In this document: in pieces, positions 1 to 6,581 of the stretch | Layout: each line of letters begins with the position of its first letter | Numbering within the stretch: the stretch's first letter is position 1 | Source: Dictyostelium discoideum | Taxonomy: Eukaryota | Reading direction: 5' to 3' | Assembly: GCA_000004695.1 (NCBI GenBank) | Contig: CH709156.1 | Span: 1-6,581 of the forward strand | Length of the DNA stretch: 6,581 nt | The notes under the pieces: generated by a model | The model's input: the letters and a program-made list of their open reading frames with translations, nothing else | Told to the model about the DNA's origin: nothing | Database searches by the model: none | Made by a program: the position numbers and the translations under genes

Positions 1-123
1 AGGTGTACCGAATGGAGCGACATTCACTTGGAAGTTAGATGGAAAGTTGAATACTTTATTCAATTCGGATATCTCATCTTTCTTGAGGATACATTCTTCT
101 TCGACAAGTAAACCTTGATTGAG
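1..123 (-). CDS. Alternate-frame open segment overlapping the 3' end of the 60-398 ORF, translating ...LNQGLLVEEECILKKDEISELNKVFNFPSNFQVNVAPFGTP and running off the window edge. Likely the same gene after a frameshift or unrecognised splice.
   Basis: Manual translation of the minus strand. The frame opens after a TGA at 126-124, has no stop down to base 1 and is not low-complexity. It overlaps the annotated ORF by ~60 nt. Confidence 0.3.
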
Positions 124-398
124 TCAAGAGTAATAATGAGACCTTTGAACGACCACTTCACCAAGTCTGATTCATCTTCACTTTGTTCATTCTCGGTGTC
201 AGAGTTATCATGAGAAGGTTGGCTACGTGAGTTGGTATTAGAAGAGAACATAGGTTCTTTCATGAATCTTGTAAAGGCTAAGGAAAGATTGTTGATTTGA
301 TCCTCCATTGATTTCATTCTTAAATCAAAGGATTCAGCGCTATTAGAGGCAGAGGTACTACTACTTGAGGCATCATTATTATTAACAGTGGTAGACAT
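60..398 (-). CDS. Hypothetical S/N-rich protein, N-terminal segment (112 codons). The reading frame probably continues in another frame toward position 1.
   Basis: ORF track: ATG at 398-396 (minus strand) in an aaaatATG context, S/N-rich low-complexity N-terminus typical of this genome. The stop is TGA at ~62-60, but an alternate minus-strand frame is open from 123 to 1. Confidence 0.4.
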   Translation of the reverse strand: MSTTVNNNDASSSSTSASNSAESFDLRMKSMEDQINNLSLAFTRFMKEPMFSSNTNSRSQPSHDNSDTENEQSEDESDLVKWSFKGLIITLDSIKVYLSKKNVSSRKMRYPN

Positions 399-486
399 AT
401 TTTATTGTTGATATCTAAAATTATAATATGAGAAAAATAATAATATTAAAAATTAATAAAGAGAAATAATTATTTGTATAAAATTT

Positions 487-498
487 GTGTGTGTGTGT
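487..498. repeat. (GT)6 microsatellite
   Basis: tgtgtgtgtgtg read directly. Confidence 0.9.
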
Positions 499-618
499 AT
501 CTTAAATATATATAGGAGGAATTCCCAAATAAAATAAATCAAATTGTTTTAGTTTTTAGTGCCACTATTTATACGTTTTTATTTTCTTAAAAATTTCGCA
601 AAACTCAAAAAAATAAGA

Positions 619-721
619 GTTTTCGACACTTCACAACTTTGTGCATAGTGTCGGTTCGGAATTTTTCAGTTTTTCGACCTTACACAATGATCGCGTCATT
701 GTGCCGGTTCGAAATTTTTAC
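619..721. repeat. Two diverged tandem copies (~50 and ~53 bp) of a GC-richer unit (tttcgac..cacaa..gtgcat..gtg(t/c)cggttcg(g/a)aattttt). Each contains a short internal palindrome (cgacact/agtgtcg; acaatga/tcattgt).
   Basis: Direct comparison of 619-668 with 669-721. Shared blocks are ttttcgac, cacaa, gtgc, cggttcg and aattttt. Confidence 0.6.
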
Positions 722-747
722 TTTTCTTTCGAAAATTTTTTATTCTT

Positions 748-767
748 CGAATGTTCTAGAACATTCT
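748..767. promoter_or_regulatory. Canonical heat-shock element: four contiguous alternating nGAAn/nTTCn pentamers (cGAAtgTTCtaGAAcaTTCt). Also a perfect 18-bp palindrome GAATGTTCTAGAACATTC at 749-766.
   Basis: Read directly. GAA 749-751, TTC 754-756, GAA 759-761 and TTC 764-766 show 2-nt spacing throughout. It lies ~80 bp upstream of the integrase ATG (847) and ~350 bp upstream of the divergent minus-strand ATG (398). Confidence 0.55.
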
Positions 768-820
768 AAAAAATTATCTTAAATATTTGGGAAATTCAAA
801 TAAATAAATGTTATTCATAA

Positions 821-835
821 TATATATATATATAT
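821..835. repeat. (TA)7-8 microsatellite just upstream of the integrase ATG
   Basis: tatatatatatatat read directly. Confidence 0.9.
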
Positions 836-846
836 GATAATATAAA

Positions 847-3199: not shown

Positions 3200-3353
3200 A
3201 AAATAAACAATAAAATTCTAAAATTTAAAATAAATAAACAGTATAATTAAATTCGCAGTAAAAATCTACCCCATAAACCTGAAATCAGTATTGGTCTATA
3301 TTGAGAAATAACAAAGAATGAATAAAAGTATAAAAATAGAATTCTTAAAATAG

Positions 3354-3388
3354 GTTGTAACAAGATCTCAAAAAAATATCTTGTTAAT
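3354..3388. repeat. Perfect 9-bp inverted repeat taacaagat / atcttgtta with an 11-nt A-rich loop
   Basis: Read directly. Confidence 0.7.
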
Positions 3389-3411
3389 ACTAATATTTAT
3401 TTAATTTTATG

Positions 3412-3433
3412 AAATGTTCTAAACAGAACATTT
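3412..3433. repeat. Perfect 9-bp inverted repeat aaatgttct / agaacattt with a 4-nt loop (aaac). It shares the AATGTTCT/AGAACATT half-sites with the palindrome at 749-766.
   Basis: Read directly. Confidence 0.7.
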
Positions 3434-3712
3434 AAAAATAACTATTAATATTGAATTGATAATTTAATATTAAATTATTACTAACTTAATTCATTTTAAT
3501 AAATTGTTTCATTTTATATAATAAATTCACTAAACACAACTAAACAATAATTCAAAAATAAATAATAATAATTTAGAATATAGTTTTGTTTCAACATTTT
3601 GTTATGACACATACAATTCAGAAAATAATAATAATTTATTTTATTATTTTGTTTAAAGGGGTTATCTCCCGTTGTAATTAAATTTAATTAATTTTAAATT
3701 AAATTTAATTTT

Positions 3713-3713
<1 letters not shown>

Positions 3714-3750
<37 letters not shown>
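3714..3750. repeat. Poly(A) tract of 37 A residues, preceded by an AT palindromic repeat (aattaaatttaatt x2, 3676-3710)
   Basis: Counted directly. Confidence 0.9.
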
Positions 3751-3755
<5 letters not shown>

Positions 3756-3925
3756 TTGAATTTCACAAAAAGTTTTCATAACAGATATTAGATACCAGAT
3801 ATTAAAAATGCCACACACAAAATCACCAAATAAAATAATAATATAAATTTAAAAATAATTTAATTAGAAGAGAAAATAATAATTAAATTAAAATAATATA
3901 ATATTGTAGTTTAAATTGGATCTAA

Positions 3926-4053
3926 CCCTATCGGCCGAGGTTGGAGTAGTTAATAGATTTGAGTTCGCTCAAATCTAAGGACTATAAAAGGGAACTAGGT
4001 TTCCAATTCAACCTCAGTAGTAAATATATACAAATAATAAAAACACGATAGGG
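3926..4053. ncRNA. Candidate structured element (ncRNA or transposon-terminal structure) in a GC-richer island. Not a tRNA.
   Basis: The outer stem is ccctatcg 3926-3933 pairing with cgataggg 4046-4053. The inner stem is gaggttg 3937-3943 pairing with caacctc 4010-4016. A central perfect 9-bp stem agatttgag/ctcaaatct carries a UUCG tetraloop (3955-3976). A TATA-like ctataaaag lies at 3983-3991. GC content is clearly above the flanking ~90% AT sequence. No tRNA A/B boxes or cloverleaf were found on either strand. Confidence 0.3.
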
Positions 4054-4166
4054 CTACGGTCATTAATTAATTTTGTGTACATTTATTTCTTAAATAATTA
4101 ATCATTTTACTTTAATAATAGAATAAATAAATAATTAAATTTTATTAAATAATTTATTTTAAGAGA

Positions 4167-4508
4167 ATGTCGACTAATAATAACGAAGATATTGATAATT
4201 ATGAATTGCAACAACAGGATAATGAGGAACAACAACAACCACAGGTATCAACATTCAATGAACAGCAACGTCAGATAAGGGAACAGCAGCAGGTAATAGA
4301 TAAACAAAATCAACAACACATTCAATTAATAAATCAACAATCTCAACAACAATTGAATAATCATACGACACCACCATCATCACCCAACATTACAACACCA
4401 ATAACTTCAGCAGCAATAACCAACACAATAAAGATATCATTAGGAAAAATTAACACTGATGATACCGACCACCAGTTGTTACATATCCCTCTAAATATAA
4501 AATTCTAA
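4167..4508 (+). CDS. Small Gln-rich hypothetical protein (113 aa)
   Basis: ORF track: ATG in an aagagaATGtc context, Q/N-rich, P/T-rich C-terminal half. No homology recognised. It may be ORF1 of the downstream transposon-like unit or an independent gene. Confidence 0.35.
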   Translation: MSTNNNEDIDNYELQQQDNEEQQQPQVSTFNEQQRQIREQQQVIDKQNQQHIQLINQQSQQQLNNHTTPPSSPNITTPITSAAITNTIKISLGKINTDDTDHQLLHIPLNIKF

Positions 4509-4557
4509 GTACTAAATCATATATCTACTTGCCATAATGCTAAAATTTGAATAAAAT

Positions 4558-4608
4558 GAAAAAAAAAAAAAAAAAACGTAAAAACTCGAGGAAAAAAAAA
4601 AAAAAAAA
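4558..4608. repeat. Two poly(A) tracts (A19 at 4558-4576 and A17 at 4592-4608) flanking a cgtaaaaactcgagg spacer
   Basis: Counted directly. They explain the artefactual KKKKKK N-terminus of track ORF 4547, which starts at TTG rather than ATG. Confidence 0.85.
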
Positions 4609-4639
4609 TATTATTTTTAATTTCCAGCCAGCAAACAAA

Positions 4640-5476
4640 ATGAATTTAAATAACATATCATGCATTAATTGCAGAGAAAAATTAAAGAATTTTAAAAATA
4701 TTATTATTCATTATATTATGCATAAAAATATATGTCCATTTTGTCTTGCATATTACCGTTCTTATAAACAATTTTATGATGTAAATGGACATTCCAACAT
4801 CAAAAAATGTAAAAATGAACAAAATAAAATTATTACAAATAATCAAAAAAGAGATAGCTTTTATAAAAAATTAATGGATATTACTGGTGAAAAAATAAAA
4901 TATCCAACAAATGATTCAGATGACCCATGTAAACATTTATGTAACCAAAACCAAGATGAAATTTTTTATCAAGAAAATAATGAAAATAATGAAAATAATC
5001 AAACAATTGATAATGAAGAAAATCATGATATAATTGGGTTGGTACATAGTGAAGATGAAAACAATGAAATTAGAATAGATGAAAATGAAGCAAACATTAA
5101 TAATGAAAATAATGAAAATAATGAAAATGAAAATGCTCAAAACGAACCAATAAATAATAATCTAAATAATAATTTAGATAATGAAAAATCAAAAAAAAAA
5201 TTAAATGAAACTGAAATTGAATTTTTAATGTTGGGAATTGAAAACTCAATAAGTTTAAAGCTACTTGAAAAATTTAAAAGTTTTATTGACAAAAATAAAA
5301 CCAATTTAAATCAAATAAGATACACACCTCAATATATGGATAAATTATTTATGGAAGATTTTCAAATAAAAGGAGAAACATTTATAAATAAAAATTATGA
5401 TCACTCAATTTTTTATTTTGAAATTAAAAAAGTATTAGAAACTTTATTAAATAAAAAGCAATTTTTGAAAGAATAG
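4640..5476 (+). CDS. N-terminal part of a TNP2/CACTA-KDZ-like transposase: zinc-finger domain (C-x2-C-x12-H-x3-H at nt 4661-4723, then CPFC) plus an acidic N/E-rich repeat region
   Basis: First in-frame ATG after the poly(A) tracts (4640, MNLNNISCINCREKLKNFKNIIIHYIMHKNICPFC...). Zinc-binding N-termini (Transpos_assoc-type CxxC...CxxC) are characteristic of TNP2-family transposases, which is established knowledge. The stop is at 5474-5476. Confidence 0.55.
   Translation: MNLNNISCINCREKLKNFKNIIIHYIMHKNICPFCLAYYRSYKQFYDVNGHSNIKKCKNEQNKIITNNQKRDSFYKKLMDITGEKIKYPTNDSDDPCKHLCNQNQDEIFYQENNENNENNQTIDNEENHDIIGLVHSEDENNEIRIDENEANINNENNENNENENAQNEPINNNLNNNLDNEKSKKKLNETEIEFLMLGIENSISLKLLEKFKSFIDKNKTNLNQIRYTPQYMDKLFMEDFQIKGETFINKNYDHSIFYFEIKKVLETLLNKKQFLKE
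4973..5135 (+). repeat. Coding trinucleotide/9-mer repeats (AATAATGAA)n encoding (NEN)n in two blocks (~4973-5000 and ~5099-5135)
   Basis: Read directly. They give rise to the spurious antisense ORF 4937-5140. Confidence 0.8.
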
Positions 5477-6581
5477 ATTTTGATACAGATTTTGAAACTG
5501 GAATTTATACAAATTATAAAAGTGGTCAACAATTTAAAGATTTAAAAAATAAAAATAAAAATAAAATTGTTTTACTTAGAATATTCACTGATAGTATGCA
5601 GTGTCAAAACAAGAAAGATTATACTATAATGCTGGATATAGAAAATTATATTGGAAATGAATTTAAAAATAATAAATTATTATTATTTGTAGTACCAAAT
5701 GATTGGTTACTTAATTTTCATCAAACAATTAGGGCATTGTTTTCATCTTTTATTGGTAATGGCTTTAATTTAATTATTGAAAATGAACAAATAGATGTTG
5801 TACCGTTTGGACTGACAATGGATATTCCAGAATTTAGAGCATCCTGTAAACTTAATGGACATAATTCAAATGAATATGCATGTCACACATGTGACAAACC
5901 AAGAGATGGTTTATTTATTTGCAAATCAGGTACATTAAGAAAACAAGAAGATATTACAAATTTTCACTCCACCAAACCAAATTATGCTGAACTAAATGCT
6001 GATATAGAATTAAAAAAAGTATGGGAAAAAAAAGCAAAAGATATTGGTATCAAAGGTGTGGACAGAGGGTGGGTCGAACCTTTGTCCATTAATTATTTAA
6101 AAACACAACCAGACATTTTACATAATATTTTATTAGGTGTCGCACAAAAATGTTTAAATTACATTTTTGATAAATATAAAAATAAAATTGCAAATTTTTT
6201 AAATAATTTAAAAAATGCAAAAATAATAGATAACAAACCAAAACCTTCAATTTCACTATTTGCAAATAAAACAAGGAAAGGAAGAGAGAATAGATCAATA
6301 ATATATTACCTTTTAATATCAATTAAAAATCAAATATCAAATGATGATTTTTTAATTATGGAACAATTCGTAACTATATGTTTTAAATTATATAGTGACT
6401 CTTTTGATGAAAATGATTTAAATTCACTTCAAGTATTAATTGAATCGTTTAATGCAAAAGTAAATTTAATTACTGAAACAGAAATAATGAATTTCCACTT
6501 GTTGTTACATTATCCAATCTATATAAAAAATTGGGGTGCACCAAAATACACTTCAGCTGAAACTTTTGAAGCACAATTATC
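5452..6581 (+). CDS. Catalytic core of a TNP2 / En-Spm(CACTA) / KDZ-Plavaka superfamily DDE transposase. Open frame-1 segment with no stop in 1130 nt, continuing beyond the window.
   Basis: Manual translation with no stop from 5452 to 6581. Motifs: LLRIFTDSMQ (nt 5572-5601; cf. ILSSDKTQL / LSTDGFNPF), VVPNDWLLN (cf. TPYNLPPWL), DIPEFRASCKLNGHNSNEYACHTC (nt 5821-5892; cf. WTINDFPAY...G...CPVC), DILHNILLGV (nt 6112-6141; cf. DVMHIEKNV) and HLLLHYPIYIKNWGAPKYTSAETFEAQL (nt 6496-6579; cf. HLFLHL..EDI..WGP....MYPFERFMG..L). It is not in the ORF track because it has no stop codon in the window. Confidence 0.7.

What the first reader, a model, noticed from the sequence alone, without database searches (positions are those of the whole stretch)
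3926..4053. GC-richer island with nested complementary segments and a 9-bp stem/UUCG hairpin in an AT desert
In ~950 bp of ~90% AT sequence, a ~130-bp island contains ccctatcg (3926-3933) pairing with cgataggg (4046-4053), then gaggttg (3937-3943) pairing with caacctc (4010-4016). At its centre is the perfect hairpin agatttgag-UUCG-ctcaaatct (3955-3976), where UUCG is a hyperstable RNA tetraloop, and there is a small ggaac-tag-gtttcc hairpin (3991-4004). In Dictyostelium, local GC islands in intergenic DNA usually mark ncRNA or tRNA genes. This one lacks tRNA A/B boxes, C/D or H/ACA boxes and clear snRNA signatures that I could recognise. It also lies ~120 bp upstream of the Q-rich ORF and ~700 bp upstream of the transposase gene, so it could instead be a transposon (sub)terminal structure.
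Basis: seen in the sequence. Interest (0 to 1): 0.55.

Follow-up and report, generated by a model that had tools for sequence, protein, structure and literature searches.

The report
Control core of a retrotransposon LTR
The GC-richer, self-complementary island is not a free-standing RNA gene: it is the conserved centre of the 1.1-kb long terminal repeat of a decayed gypsy-type retrotransposon in Dictyostelium discoideum, and probably holds the element's TATA box, transcript start and poly(A) signal, so it is an ordinary if neatly built transposon feature.

Summary
The complementary segments exist (one is off by a base) and the 141-nt region folds far better than shuffles (-45.8 kcal/mol, z = -6.9). 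The ncRNA-gene reading is not supported: there is no Rfam, tRNA, DUSE or Class I match.

The island sits at positions 571-698 of a 1128-bp repeat (window 3356-4483) with TGTAACAA...TTGTTACA ends. That repeat is an LTR. Two other copies are solo LTRs flanked by 5-bp target duplications. In a related strain it lies directly 5' of a TGG primer-binding site and gag-RT-RNaseH-integrase. In the window it follows the integrase.

The downstream "transposase-like" element is separate and 5'-truncated, and the island does not belong to it.

Within the island, TATAAAA, AATAAA and a TGTGTA motif are in all five copies with conserved spacing. I infer a U3/R/U5 core: TATA, start near 4012-4020, poly(A) signal, cleavage near 4061, GU-rich element. 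The outer stems would pair U3 with R, so the Y-shaped fold could form only at the RNA 3' end. That suggests a 3'-LTR-specific poly(A) or strand-transfer aid, which is not shown. Covariation is too sparse to prove the fold.

Interest is low to moderate.

The parts
3356..4483 (+). 3' long terminal repeat (1128 bp) of a Ty3/gypsy-type LTR retrotransposon; contains the island
   Evidence: Same unit at L003:9164-10326 (90.8% identity) and L004:9234-10193 (87%), each flanked by a 5-bp target duplication (AGTTT, AATTG). Also at L005:5903-6975 (about 61-65% identity), directly 5' of the PBS and gag-pol.
3356..3363 (+). LTR 5' terminus TGTAACAA, the inverted repeat of the 3' terminus TTGTTACA at 4476-4483
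   Evidence: the termini coincide exactly with the ends of homology in the solo LTRs
3341..3355 (+). purine-rich tract (…AAAATAGGT) abutting the 3' LTR: a weak polypurine tract
   Evidence: the clearer counterpart AAAGAAAAGAGGT|TGTAACAAG is in L006
847..3199 (+). degenerate 3' part of pol (integrase H2C2 + rve, then a C-terminal extension ORF) of the same retroelement
   Evidence: Pfam hits; 79% DNA identity to L005:9997-11412, which lies inside a gag-RT-RNaseH-IN element
3926..3933 (+). P1 5' arm CCCTATCG, which pairs with 4046-4053 CGATAGGG
   Evidence: Exact complement. Both arms are identical in L003 and L005 (L004 has one mismatch). They are among the few best-conserved 15-mers between LTRs that are 61% identical overall.
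3934..3945 (+). P2 5' arm, which pairs with 4007-4018 (12 bp in L003/L004; C3936.A4016 mismatch in the window; only 5 bp, CUGAG/CUCAG, in L005)
3946..3985 (+). P3/P4 long hairpin (P3 3946-3951/3980-3985; P4 3954-3963/3968-3977; loop UUCG 3964-3967); specific to the D. discoideum lineage
   Evidence: MFE folds. About 42 nt covering it and the inner half of the P2 5' arm (GTTGGA) are absent from L005. Pair 3954-3977 is U-A, C-G or C.A among copies.
3983..3989 (+). TATAAAA, candidate TATA box of the LTR promoter, located in the three-way junction
   Evidence: The only TATAAAA in the window's LTR. Present in all five copies at a fixed 47-53 nt from the AATAAA.
3990..4004 (+). P5 small hairpin GGGAAC-UAG-GUUUCC
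   Evidence: Present in all five copies. Pair 3990-4004 is G-C, A-U or G-U among copies.
4007..4018 (+). P2 3' arm; inferred transcription start zone (about 24-31 nt after the TATA box)
   Evidence: Pairing. The start site is inferred from TATA spacing only and is not measured.
4036..4041 (+). AATAAA, candidate poly(A) signal in the 27-nt unpaired stretch between the P2 and P1 3' arms
   Evidence: Present in all five copies with fixed spacing. Computed probability of being unpaired is 0.97 in the 3'-end context.
4046..4053 (+). P1 3' arm CGATAGGG; the candidate cleavage CA at 4061-4062 follows it
   Evidence: the cleavage position is inferred
4070..4079 (+). ATTTTGTGTA, a GU-rich motif that is a candidate downstream poly(A) element or start-site motif
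   Evidence: TG(T/C)GTA is present in all five copies 30-40 nt after the AATAAA. A similar AATTGTGTAC follows TATA and AATAAA in an unrelated DGLT-A-like LTR (L009).
4167..4508 (+). Q-rich ORF: the start of gag, initiated inside the LTR. In this 3' copy it reads out of the LTR into foreign DNA.
   Evidence: In L005 the homologous ORF (ATG 6637) runs through the LTR end and the PBS into gag. P0022 to P0024 are the same ORF in solo LTRs.

Best explanation
The island is the functional core of a retrotransposon LTR.

Shown:
- Window 3356-4483 is the 3' LTR of a degenerate, low-copy Ty3/gypsy-type element of D. discoideum.
- The island occupies LTR positions 571-698, about 115 nt upstream of the gag start codon, which itself lies inside the LTR.

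Inferred from motif conservation and spacing:
- The island spans the U3/R/U5 junction. TATAAAA (3983) is the promoter TATA box and transcription starts around 4012-4020.
- AAUAAA (4036), a CA at 4061-62 and a GU-rich TGTGTA (4074) form the poly(A) site. R is then about 45-50 nt.

Inferred mechanism:
- The arms P1-5', P2-5' and hairpins P3-P5 lie in U3. Their partners P2-3' and P1-3' lie in R.
- The Y-shaped fold can therefore form only in RNA that contains U3, meaning the 3' end of the genomic transcript. It cannot form at the 5' end, where R is preceded by the cap.
- The fold leaves AAUAAA single-stranded and places the cleavage site just 3' of the closing stem.
- I propose it marks the 3' LTR copy of the poly(A) site for use, or offers the open A-rich loop as a landing pad for minus-strand strong-stop DNA. 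The identical 5' copy stays unfolded and is read through.

Confidence by layer: about 0.95 that the island is an internal part of this LTR, about 0.55 that it is the U3/R/U5 core as laid out here, and about 0.2-0.3 for the specific fold-dependent mechanism.
For: LTR identity:
- TG...CA termini with an 8-bp inverted repeat.
- Two solo copies with perfect 5-bp target duplications in unrelated genic contexts.
- In L005 the repeat sits immediately 5' of TGGTAGCTTCTCTACCGG (a TGG primer-binding site) and of gene calls for zf-CCHC gag, RT/RNaseH and integrase. A second partial copy, 97% identical, lies 3' of them.
- A polypurine tract abuts the 3' copy.

The island is always inside this unit:
- nhmmer and the covariance model find it only there: window, L003, L004, L005 and fragment L002.

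Fold:
- z = -6.9, -6.1, -6.0 and -3.9 in four copies.
- 93.5% of pair cells form standard pairs, against 30-46% when partners are slid.
- P1 and P5 persist in L005 despite 61% overall LTR identity (P2 only as a 5-bp CUGAG/CUCAG remnant), and the roughly 42-nt indel takes out the P3/P4 hairpin plus the inner half of the P2 5' arm.
- Two compensated pairs: 3954-3977 U-A/C-G and 3990-4004 G-C/A-U.

Core-signal reading:
- TATAAAA, AATAAAAA and TG(T/C)GTA occur in all five copies.
- TATA to AATAAA is 47-53 nt and AATAAA to TGTGTA is 30-40 nt. The distances from P1-5' to TATA (16 vs 57 nt) and from TGTGTA to the ATG (55-152 nt) vary freely.
- AAUAAA has P(unpaired) 0.97 in the 3' context, with P1/P2 fully paired.
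- The same TATA, AATAAA, TGTGTAC order occurs in an unrelated DGLT-A-like LTR.
Against: - No transcript ends were measured. The start and poly(A) sites are inferred from motifs that are common in an 80% AT genome: there are 9 AATAAA in this LTR.
- A second TATA-like motif (TATATAC, 4026) followed 47 nt later by TGTGTAC would place the start downstream of the whole island.
- Covariation is not significant. With 5 near-identical sequences, 2 double changes and shuffles doing equally well, pairing could reflect sequence conservation alone.
- Both P1 arms are invariant in sequence across the two lineages. That is what protein-binding DNA sites would also show.
- The minus strand folds almost as well, so the strand, and RNA versus DNA, is not settled.
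- All copies seen are degenerate or solo, so present-day function cannot be assumed.
Confidence: 0.55

Rival explanations
1. Purely DNA-level promoter module. The GC-richer arms are binding sites for transcription factors, as inverted copies of CCCTATCG(G) and CTGAGG flanking the TATA box. This would fit the usual Dictyostelium pattern of short G/C-rich cis-elements in AT-rich promoters. The predicted fold would be a by-product.
For: - Both P1 arms are sequence-invariant between LTRs that are 61% identical overall, with no covariation.
- The arms bracket the only TATAAAA of the LTR.
- The island lies at a sensible distance upstream of the gag ATG.
- The arms contain GATA-like (CGATAG) and telobox-like (TAACCCTA) cores. 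This is my own reading and was not tested.
Against: - The spacing between P1-5' and the TATA box differs by about 41 nt between lineages (16 vs 57 nt). That is awkward for a geometry-dependent promoter.
- The roughly 42-nt indel removes the P3/P4 hairpin and the inner half of the P2 5' arm but leaves P1, P5 and 5 bp of P2.
- Two helix positions show compensated changes, and several G.U pairs extend the helices on the sense strand only.
- Four nested helices with z = -6.9 are more than two factor sites would need.
Confidence: 0.25
2. 5'-leader RNA element. Transcription starts upstream of 3926, for instance from the TATAAAT at 3842, so the whole fold sits in R or the 5' UTR of the genomic RNA. 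There it would act in packaging, dimerisation, translation control or strand transfer, like retroviral R-region hairpins.
For: - Strong sense-strand fold about 115 nt upstream of the gag ATG.
- The degenerate fragment L002 begins about 45 nt upstream of the island.
- TATA-like motifs are plentiful upstream.
Against: - The conserved-spacing block TATAAAA, AATAAA, TGTGTA sits inside and just after the island. That fits a start within it better.
- Upstream TATA-like motifs are not conserved in L005.
- The 5' end of L002 abuts another repeat, so it is probably a truncation and not a transcript start.
Confidence: 0.1
3. Non-functional palindrome. The nested inverted repeats, especially the perfect P4 hairpin, are relics of replication or reverse-transcription template switching (snap-back synthesis), carried passively in the LTR.
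For: - P3/P4 is a lineage-specific insertion or deletion of about 42 nt with a perfect stem.
- There is no statistical covariation.
- All copies are degenerate.
Against: - The P1 arms are conserved between lineages while the surrounding non-coding LTR has diverged to about 61%.
- The P4 and P5 stems are intact even in the 72%-identical degenerate copy L002, where many other G/C positions have decayed.
- The spacing of the embedded signals is conserved.
Confidence: 0.08
4. Independent small ncRNA gene (Pol III or snRNA-type) that happens to lie in, or was captured by, the repeat.
For: - A GC island in an AT desert with a stable compact fold.
- The motif TTTTGTGTA loosely resembles the TGTG box (AAATGTG) described upstream of Class I RNA genes (PMC7919456).
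Against: - No Rfam hit at the gathering score or at E<=10.
- No tRNA, no DUSE (WCCCAYAA) and no Class I 11-nt motif.
- It never occurs outside the LTR.
- The central hairpin is dispensable in the related strain.
Confidence: 0.03
5. Terminal or subterminal structure of the downstream 'transposase'-bearing element.
For: Proximity only.
Against: - Homology to other copies of that element starts at window 4490, right after the LTR end.
- Copies L001 and L002 share about 880 bp more 5' sequence with each other, and it contains no island.
- The model and nhmmer find no island next to those copies.
Confidence: 0.01

Closest known systems
Dictyostelid Ty3/gypsy LTR retrotransposons (Skipper-1, Skipper-2/DGLT-P, DGLT-A; Spaller et al. 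2016, PMC5006619)
   Same: - Integrase with H2C2 + rve domains and a long C-terminal extension.
- RT-RNaseH-IN domain order.
- TG...CA LTR termini and 5-bp target duplications.
- A TGG-type primer-binding site, as in DGLT-A.
- Found nested with DIRS-1 and other repeats.
   Different: - The LTR is 1073-1163 bp, against published D. discoideum values of 390 (Skipper-1), 208 (Skipper-2) and 265 (DGLT-A).
- The PBS is TGGTAGCTTCTCTACCGG directly after the LTR, not DGLT-A's TGGCGACATCGTCTTTC and not Skipper's polypyrimidine tract.
- gag starts about 315-340 nt inside the LTR.
- No tRNA gene lies near any copy.
- No Pfam chromodomain was detected.
- I could not compare with Repbase or GenBank consensus sequences, so the family may already be catalogued.
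Retroviral U3/R RNA structures that govern 3'-end formation (HIV-1 U3 upstream enhancer and poly(A) hairpin; HTLV-1/BLV U3-R stem that juxtaposes AAUAAA and the cleavage site). From my own knowledge, not tested here.
   Same: The problem is the same: identical poly(A) signals at both RNA ends. The proposed logic is also the same: sequence present only in the 3' copy (U3) changes how the R-region signal is presented.
   Different: - AAUAAA and the putative cleavage site are already at normal spacing here, so no juxtaposition is needed.
- There is no sequence or Rfam similarity.
- The function here is inferred only.
Ty1 of S. cerevisiae: gag (TYA1) start codon inside the 5' LTR and a structured 5' region. 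From my own knowledge.
   Same: The gag ORF begins within the LTR, so solo LTRs carry an orphan ORF.
   Different: Ty1 is a copia-type element with a 334-bp LTR. Its known structures involve the PBS and gag region, not a U3-R fold.

Membership tests
LTR of an LTR retrotransposon | Direct repeats flanking an internal gag-pol region | tested here: met
   L005 has a 5' copy at 5903-6975. It is followed by gene calls for zf-CCHC, RT/RNaseH and integrase, then by a partial 3' copy at 11547-11888 that is 97% identical.
LTR of an LTR retrotransposon | TG...CA termini with a short inverted repeat | tested here: met
   TGTAACAA at 3356 and TTGTTACA at 4476-4483; the same ends occur in L003, L004 and L005.
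LTR of an LTR retrotransposon | 4-6 bp target-site duplication around complete insertions or solo LTRs | tested here: met
   L003 has AGTTT|LTR|AGTTT and L004 has AATTG|LTR|AATTG.
LTR of an LTR retrotransposon | Primer-binding site (TGG...) next to the 5' LTR and a polypurine tract next to the 3' LTR | tested here: met
   PBS: TGGTAGCTTCTCTACCGG at L005:6976 and TGGTAGTTTCC in L006. PPT: AAAGAAAAGAGG in L006, weaker AAAATAGG in the window. The matching tRNA could not be looked up.
LTR of an LTR retrotransposon | U3-R-U5 organisation with mapped transcript start and poly(A) site | not testable with these tools
   Only motif conservation and spacing are available. No expression data are accessible.
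Known RNA families (Rfam 15), including ribozymes, snRNA, SRP RNA and tRNA | Covariance-model score at or above the gathering threshold | tested here: not met
   0 hits at the gathering score. At E<=10 there is only HIV_POL-1_SL at 14.3 bits against a threshold of 54. ARAGORN finds no tRNA.
Dictyostelium DUSE-driven ncRNA genes / Class I RNAs | DUSE about 60 nt upstream of the start; for Class I, an 11-nt motif next to a short terminal stem and a length of 42-65 nt (PMC7919456) | tested here: not met
   No WCCCAYAA anywhere in the window and no CCTTACAGCAA with up to 2 mismatches. Both consensus strings come from my memory. The island is 128 nt long.
Conserved RNA secondary structure (comparative standard) | Statistically significant covariation in the helices | tested here: inconclusive
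   With 5 sequences, 93.5% of cells are paired but only 2 pairs change on both sides, and 268/500 shuffles do as well.
Terminal structure of the downstream multi-copy element (4484-6581) | Recurs at the same end of other copies of that element | tested here: not met
   Other copies (L001, L002) align only from window 4490 onward. They carry different 5' sequence with no island.

The most novel reading that the evidence does not exclude
An amoebozoan LTR retrotransposon uses a U3-R bridging RNA fold, which can form only at the 3' end of its genomic RNA, to decide which of its two identical poly(A) sites is used or to guide first-strand transfer. This would be a structural solution not described for Ty3/gypsy elements. 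Solo LTRs scattered among host genes would then carry a portable promoter-plus-terminator module.
Probability: 0.2. Interest if true: 0.45.

Novelty: new member of a known kind. Interest (0 to 1): 0.22.

Why it matters
- It removes a false ncRNA-gene candidate and correctly assigns about 1.1 kb of 'intergenic' DNA, plus an annotated orphan Q-rich ORF, to a retrotransposon LTR.
- The LTR family (1.1-kb LTR, gag start inside the LTR, TGG-type PBS) does not match the LTR lengths published for D. discoideum elements. The repeat annotation of this model organism may therefore be incomplete.
- If the U3-R fold does control 3'-end choice or strand transfer, it would be a compact, testable example of how LTR elements distinguish their two identical ends.
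- Solo LTRs carrying it could influence neighbouring host genes.

Tried and rejected
- **Known RNA families:** Rfam at the gathering score and at E<=10 on both strands, plus ARAGORN, found nothing real.
- **tRNA-like reading:** the 7-bp 'acceptor' GAGGTTG/CAACCTC suggested a tRNA. I rejected this because the 9-10-bp stem with a 4-nt loop cannot make an anticodon arm, and ARAGORN is negative.
- **Dictyostelium ncRNA motifs:** DUSE and the Class I motif are absent.
- **Tdd-4-type DNA transposon** (integrase-like transposase, 5-bp duplication): rejected because the repeat is direct, not inverted, and L005 shows gag-RT-RNaseH upstream of the integrase together with a PBS.
- **Self-priming (Tf1-like):** not needed, because a canonical TGG PBS is present.
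- **tRNA-gene targeting (Skipper-2/DGLT-A style):** no tRNA genes within 10 kb of any copy.
- **More copies for covariation:**
They yielded only 4 intact islands and 1 degenerate one.
  - L006 and L009 hold LTR fragments without the island region.
  - A metagenome scan with a 17-mer from the island gave 29 hits, none of which matches the covariance model, so they are chance hits.
- **Literature:**
  - Full-text searches for island or LTR sequence strings and for the locus tags found nothing relevant.
  - Glöckner et al. 2001 (the repeat catalogue) is not held.
- **Chromodomain:** Pfam found none in the ORF downstream of the integrase.
- **Window ORF look-up:** looking up the window's own Q-rich ORF in assemblies or RNA-seq contigs found no exact record.

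Full report
**1. Observation**

The window is a complete 6581-bp unplaced contig of Dictyostelium discoideum AX4. The protein DDB_G0294226 is encoded on a contig of exactly this length.

- CCCTATCG (3926-3933) and CGATAGGG (4046-4053) are exact complements.
- The 9-bp stem with a TTCG loop is at 3955-3976.
- The small hairpin is GGGAAC/GUUUCC with one G.U pair.

The island has 36.7% G+C, against 15.0% in its flanks.

As RNA, 3920-4060 folds into a Y shape:
- P1 is the outer stem: 3926-3933 with 4046-4053.
- P2 pairs 3934-3945 with 4007-4018.
- P3/P4 is a long hairpin spanning 3946-3985.
- P5 is a short hairpin spanning 3990-4004.

The fold energy is -45.8 kcal/mol, with z = -6.9 and 0 of 200 shuffles as stable. 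The opposite strand gives -44.0 kcal/mol and z = -5.7.

The 'hyperstable UUCG' point is weaker than it looks, because the closing pair is G-C rather than C-G.

**2. It is not a known RNA gene**

- Rfam 15 gives nothing at the gathering score. At E<=10 there is only a chance 14-bit match to an HIV stem-loop.
- ARAGORN finds no tRNA.
- The DUSE promoter motif and the Class I 11-nt motif are absent. Both consensus strings came from my memory. The properties of that class are described in PMC7919456.

**3. What contains it**

Other D. discoideum loci were fetched through neighbouring proteins.

The downstream multi-copy 'transposase-like' gene aligns to other copies only from window 4490 onward. 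Those copies share about 880 bp of further 5' sequence with each other, and that sequence has no island. The island is therefore not part of that element, which is 5'-truncated here.

Window 3355-4483, by contrast, recurs as one block:
- L003:9163-10326 at 90.8% identity.
- L004:9234-10193 at 87%, with an internal deletion.

The block starts TGTAACAA and ends TTGTTACA. In both other loci it is flanked by perfect 5-bp target duplications, AGTTT and AATTG, in unrelated genic surroundings.

In the window it directly follows an integrase ORF (Pfam Integrase_H2C2 + rve) and a purine-rich tract.

The integrase's closest relative is P0025, at 83% identity, from Dictyostelium cf. discoideum. It lies in a locus (L005) where the same repeat (5903-6975, about 61-65% identical) is arranged as follows:
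- It sits immediately 5' of TGGTAGCTTCTCTACCGG, a canonical TGG primer-binding site.
- Gene calls for a zf-CCHC protein, RT/RNaseH and integrase follow.
- A second partial copy, 97% identical, lies at the 3' side.

A further fragment in L006 shows AAAGAAAAGAGG|TGTAACAAG, which is a polypurine tract, and ...GTTGTTTCA|TGGTAG.

All structural criteria of an LTR are met. The island lies at LTR positions 571-698.

The Q-rich ORF (4167-4508) is the start of gag. In L005 the homologous ORF begins inside the 5' LTR and reads through the LTR end and the PBS. In solo LTRs and in this 3' LTR it runs out into foreign DNA, which explains the orphan 'hypothetical proteins' P0022 to P0024.

The family does not match published D. 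discoideum LTR lengths: Skipper-1 390 bp, Skipper-2 208 bp, DGLT-A 265 bp (PMC5006619). Its PBS also differs from those published. No copy lies near a tRNA gene. I could not compare it with Repbase.

**4. The island across copies**

A covariance model built from the three close copies finds the island only in the five LTR copies or fragments: window, L003, L004, L002 and L005.

The fold is predicted in each intact copy, with z = -6.1, -6.0 and -3.9.

The cf. discoideum copy keeps P1 (9 bp there), five pairs of P2, and P5. It lacks about 42 nt that make up the inner half of the P2 5' arm and the P3/P4 hairpin. The deletion removes the hairpin and shortens P2 to 5 bp. P1 and P5 remain.

Between the two lineages the LTRs are 61% identical overall. 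The two P1 arms are among the few well-conserved blocks that are neither low-complexity nor coding.

Two pairs show compensated changes:
- 3954-3977 is U-A, C-G or C.A among copies.
- 3990-4004 is G-C, A-U or G-U among copies.

With five sequences the covariation statistics are no better than shuffles. Comparative proof of the fold is lacking.

**5. What it most likely does**

Three short motifs occur in all five copies: TATAAAA (3983, the only one in this LTR), AATAAAAA (4036) and TG(T/C)GTA (4074).

Their spacing is conserved, while other distances are not:
- TATA to AATAAA is 53, 53, 53, 47 and 52 nt.
- AATAAA to TGTGTA is 38, 39, 40, 38 and 30 nt.
- P1-5' to TATA is 57 nt against 16 nt.
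- TGTGTA to the gag ATG ranges from 55 to 152 nt.

This is the classic layout of an LTR core:
- a TATA box;
- a start site about 25-30 nt later, near 4012-4020;
- a poly(A) signal;
- cleavage about 20 nt later, at the CA at 4061-62;
- a GU-rich downstream element.

R would then be about 45-50 nt.

An unrelated DGLT-A-like LTR shows the same order: TATAAATA, then AATAAA repeats, then AATTGTGTAC (L009:13312-13705). Its PBS, TGGCGACATCG, matches the first 11 nt of the published DGLT-A PBS.

Under this reading P1-5', P2-5' and P3-P5 are in U3, and P2-3' and P1-3' are in R. The fold can therefore form only at the 3' end of the genomic RNA.

In silico results:
- In the 3' context AAUAAA is 97% unpaired, sitting in the 27-nt loop between P2-3' and P1-3', and the stems are fully formed.
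- An RNA starting at 4015 cannot form the fold.

I propose the fold distinguishes the 3' poly(A) site from its identical 5' copy, or presents R for minus-strand transfer. This step is inference, and no transcript data were available.

**6. Rivals**

- **DNA-level promoter elements.** The invariant, inverted GC-rich arms would be factor-binding sites. This is the most serious rival. It is favoured by the sequence invariance of P1. It is disfavoured by the 41-nt spacing difference, by the indel leaving P1, P5 and part of P2 intact, and by the compensated pairs.
- **5'-leader element.** This applies if transcription starts upstream of the island.
- **Passive palindrome.** The nested repeats would be relics with no function.
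- **Independent ncRNA gene.** Poorly supported by the evidence in section 2.
- **Structure of the downstream element.** Refuted by the evidence in section 3.

**7. Verdict**

This is a real, non-random, conserved structure, and it is an internal part of a transposon LTR. It is most likely the LTR's promoter/R/poly(A) core.

It is a new member of a known kind, and interest is low to moderate. The modestly novel points are the unusually long LTR with gag initiating inside it, the apparent absence of this family from the published D. discoideum catalogue, and the testable idea of a U3-R fold that forms only at the 3' end.

Noticed in passing
window 1-846: The left end of the contig is a different repeat in reverse orientation. 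The minus-strand ORF 60-398 and the region 400-846 match L002:17435-18243 (80-92%), where a gene with an RVT_1 domain begins, and L006:15802-16622. Positions 600-770 carry repeated TTCGAA/GAAnnTTC heat-shock-element-like motifs. From memory this looks like a DIRS-1 terminal repeat plus the start of its ORF1. It cuts off the 5' part of the gypsy element exactly at the integrase ORF's ATG.
   Followed up: partly
window 4484-6581: This is a multi-copy gene found only in Dictyostelium among 21 database hits, with no Pfam family, so the label 'transposase' is unverified. It has a frameshift near 5476. It is 5'-truncated at the LTR end, whereas other copies (L001, L002) extend about 880 bp further upstream.
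   Followed up: partly
window 3359-3385: Immediately inside the LTR 5' terminus there is an 8-bp hairpin, AACAAGAT-(11 nt)-ATCTTGTT. It is conserved in L003, L004 and L005, and a related repeat is seen in L006. It may be part of the integrase recognition end or a plus-strand priming context.
   Followed up: no
window 3714-3750: A run of 37 A in U3 of the LTR. It is present as a long A or T/A tract in every LTR copy, including the cf. discoideum one.
   Followed up: no
L005:6976-6993 (and L006 ~8790, minus strand): The primer-binding site TGGTAGCTTCTCTACCGG implies a primer tRNA ending ...AGAAGCUACCA, with an A1:U72 pair and discriminator A73. From memory these are hallmarks of eukaryotic initiator tRNA-Met. 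The gag ORF reads straight through the PBS.
   Followed up: no
L009:13312-13705 and 17883-18275: A DGLT-A-like element in D. cf. discoideum with 394-bp LTRs that are 98.7% identical. Its PBS, TGGCGACATCG, lies 2 bp after the LTR and matches the first 11 nt of the published D. discoideum DGLT-A PBS. The paper states that D. discoideum itself has no full-length DGLT-A.
   Followed up: no
L003:9164-10326: This solo LTR sits inside a tandem array of zf-B_box/FNIP-repeat genes, and its flanks are homologous to neighbouring array members. The LTR's orphan gag-start ORF is annotated there as a 143-aa protein (P0022).
   Followed up: no
L001:9290-9330 and L002:8945-8985: Upstream of the intact copies of the downstream element there is another GC-rich inverted repeat, GGTTCCCCGTCATTTTTTGAAAATGGGGTCCC. 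Short GC-rich palindromes in AT-rich DNA may be a recurring feature of Dictyostelium repeats.
   Followed up: no
window 4024-4083: In an RNA that starts near 4015, the predicted fold pairs AUAUAUACAAA (4024-4034) with UUUGUGUACAU (4070-4083). This encloses AAUAAA in a loop and sequesters the GU-rich motif (P unpaired 0.14-0.16). It is a weak AU-rich helix and could be chance.
   Followed up: partly
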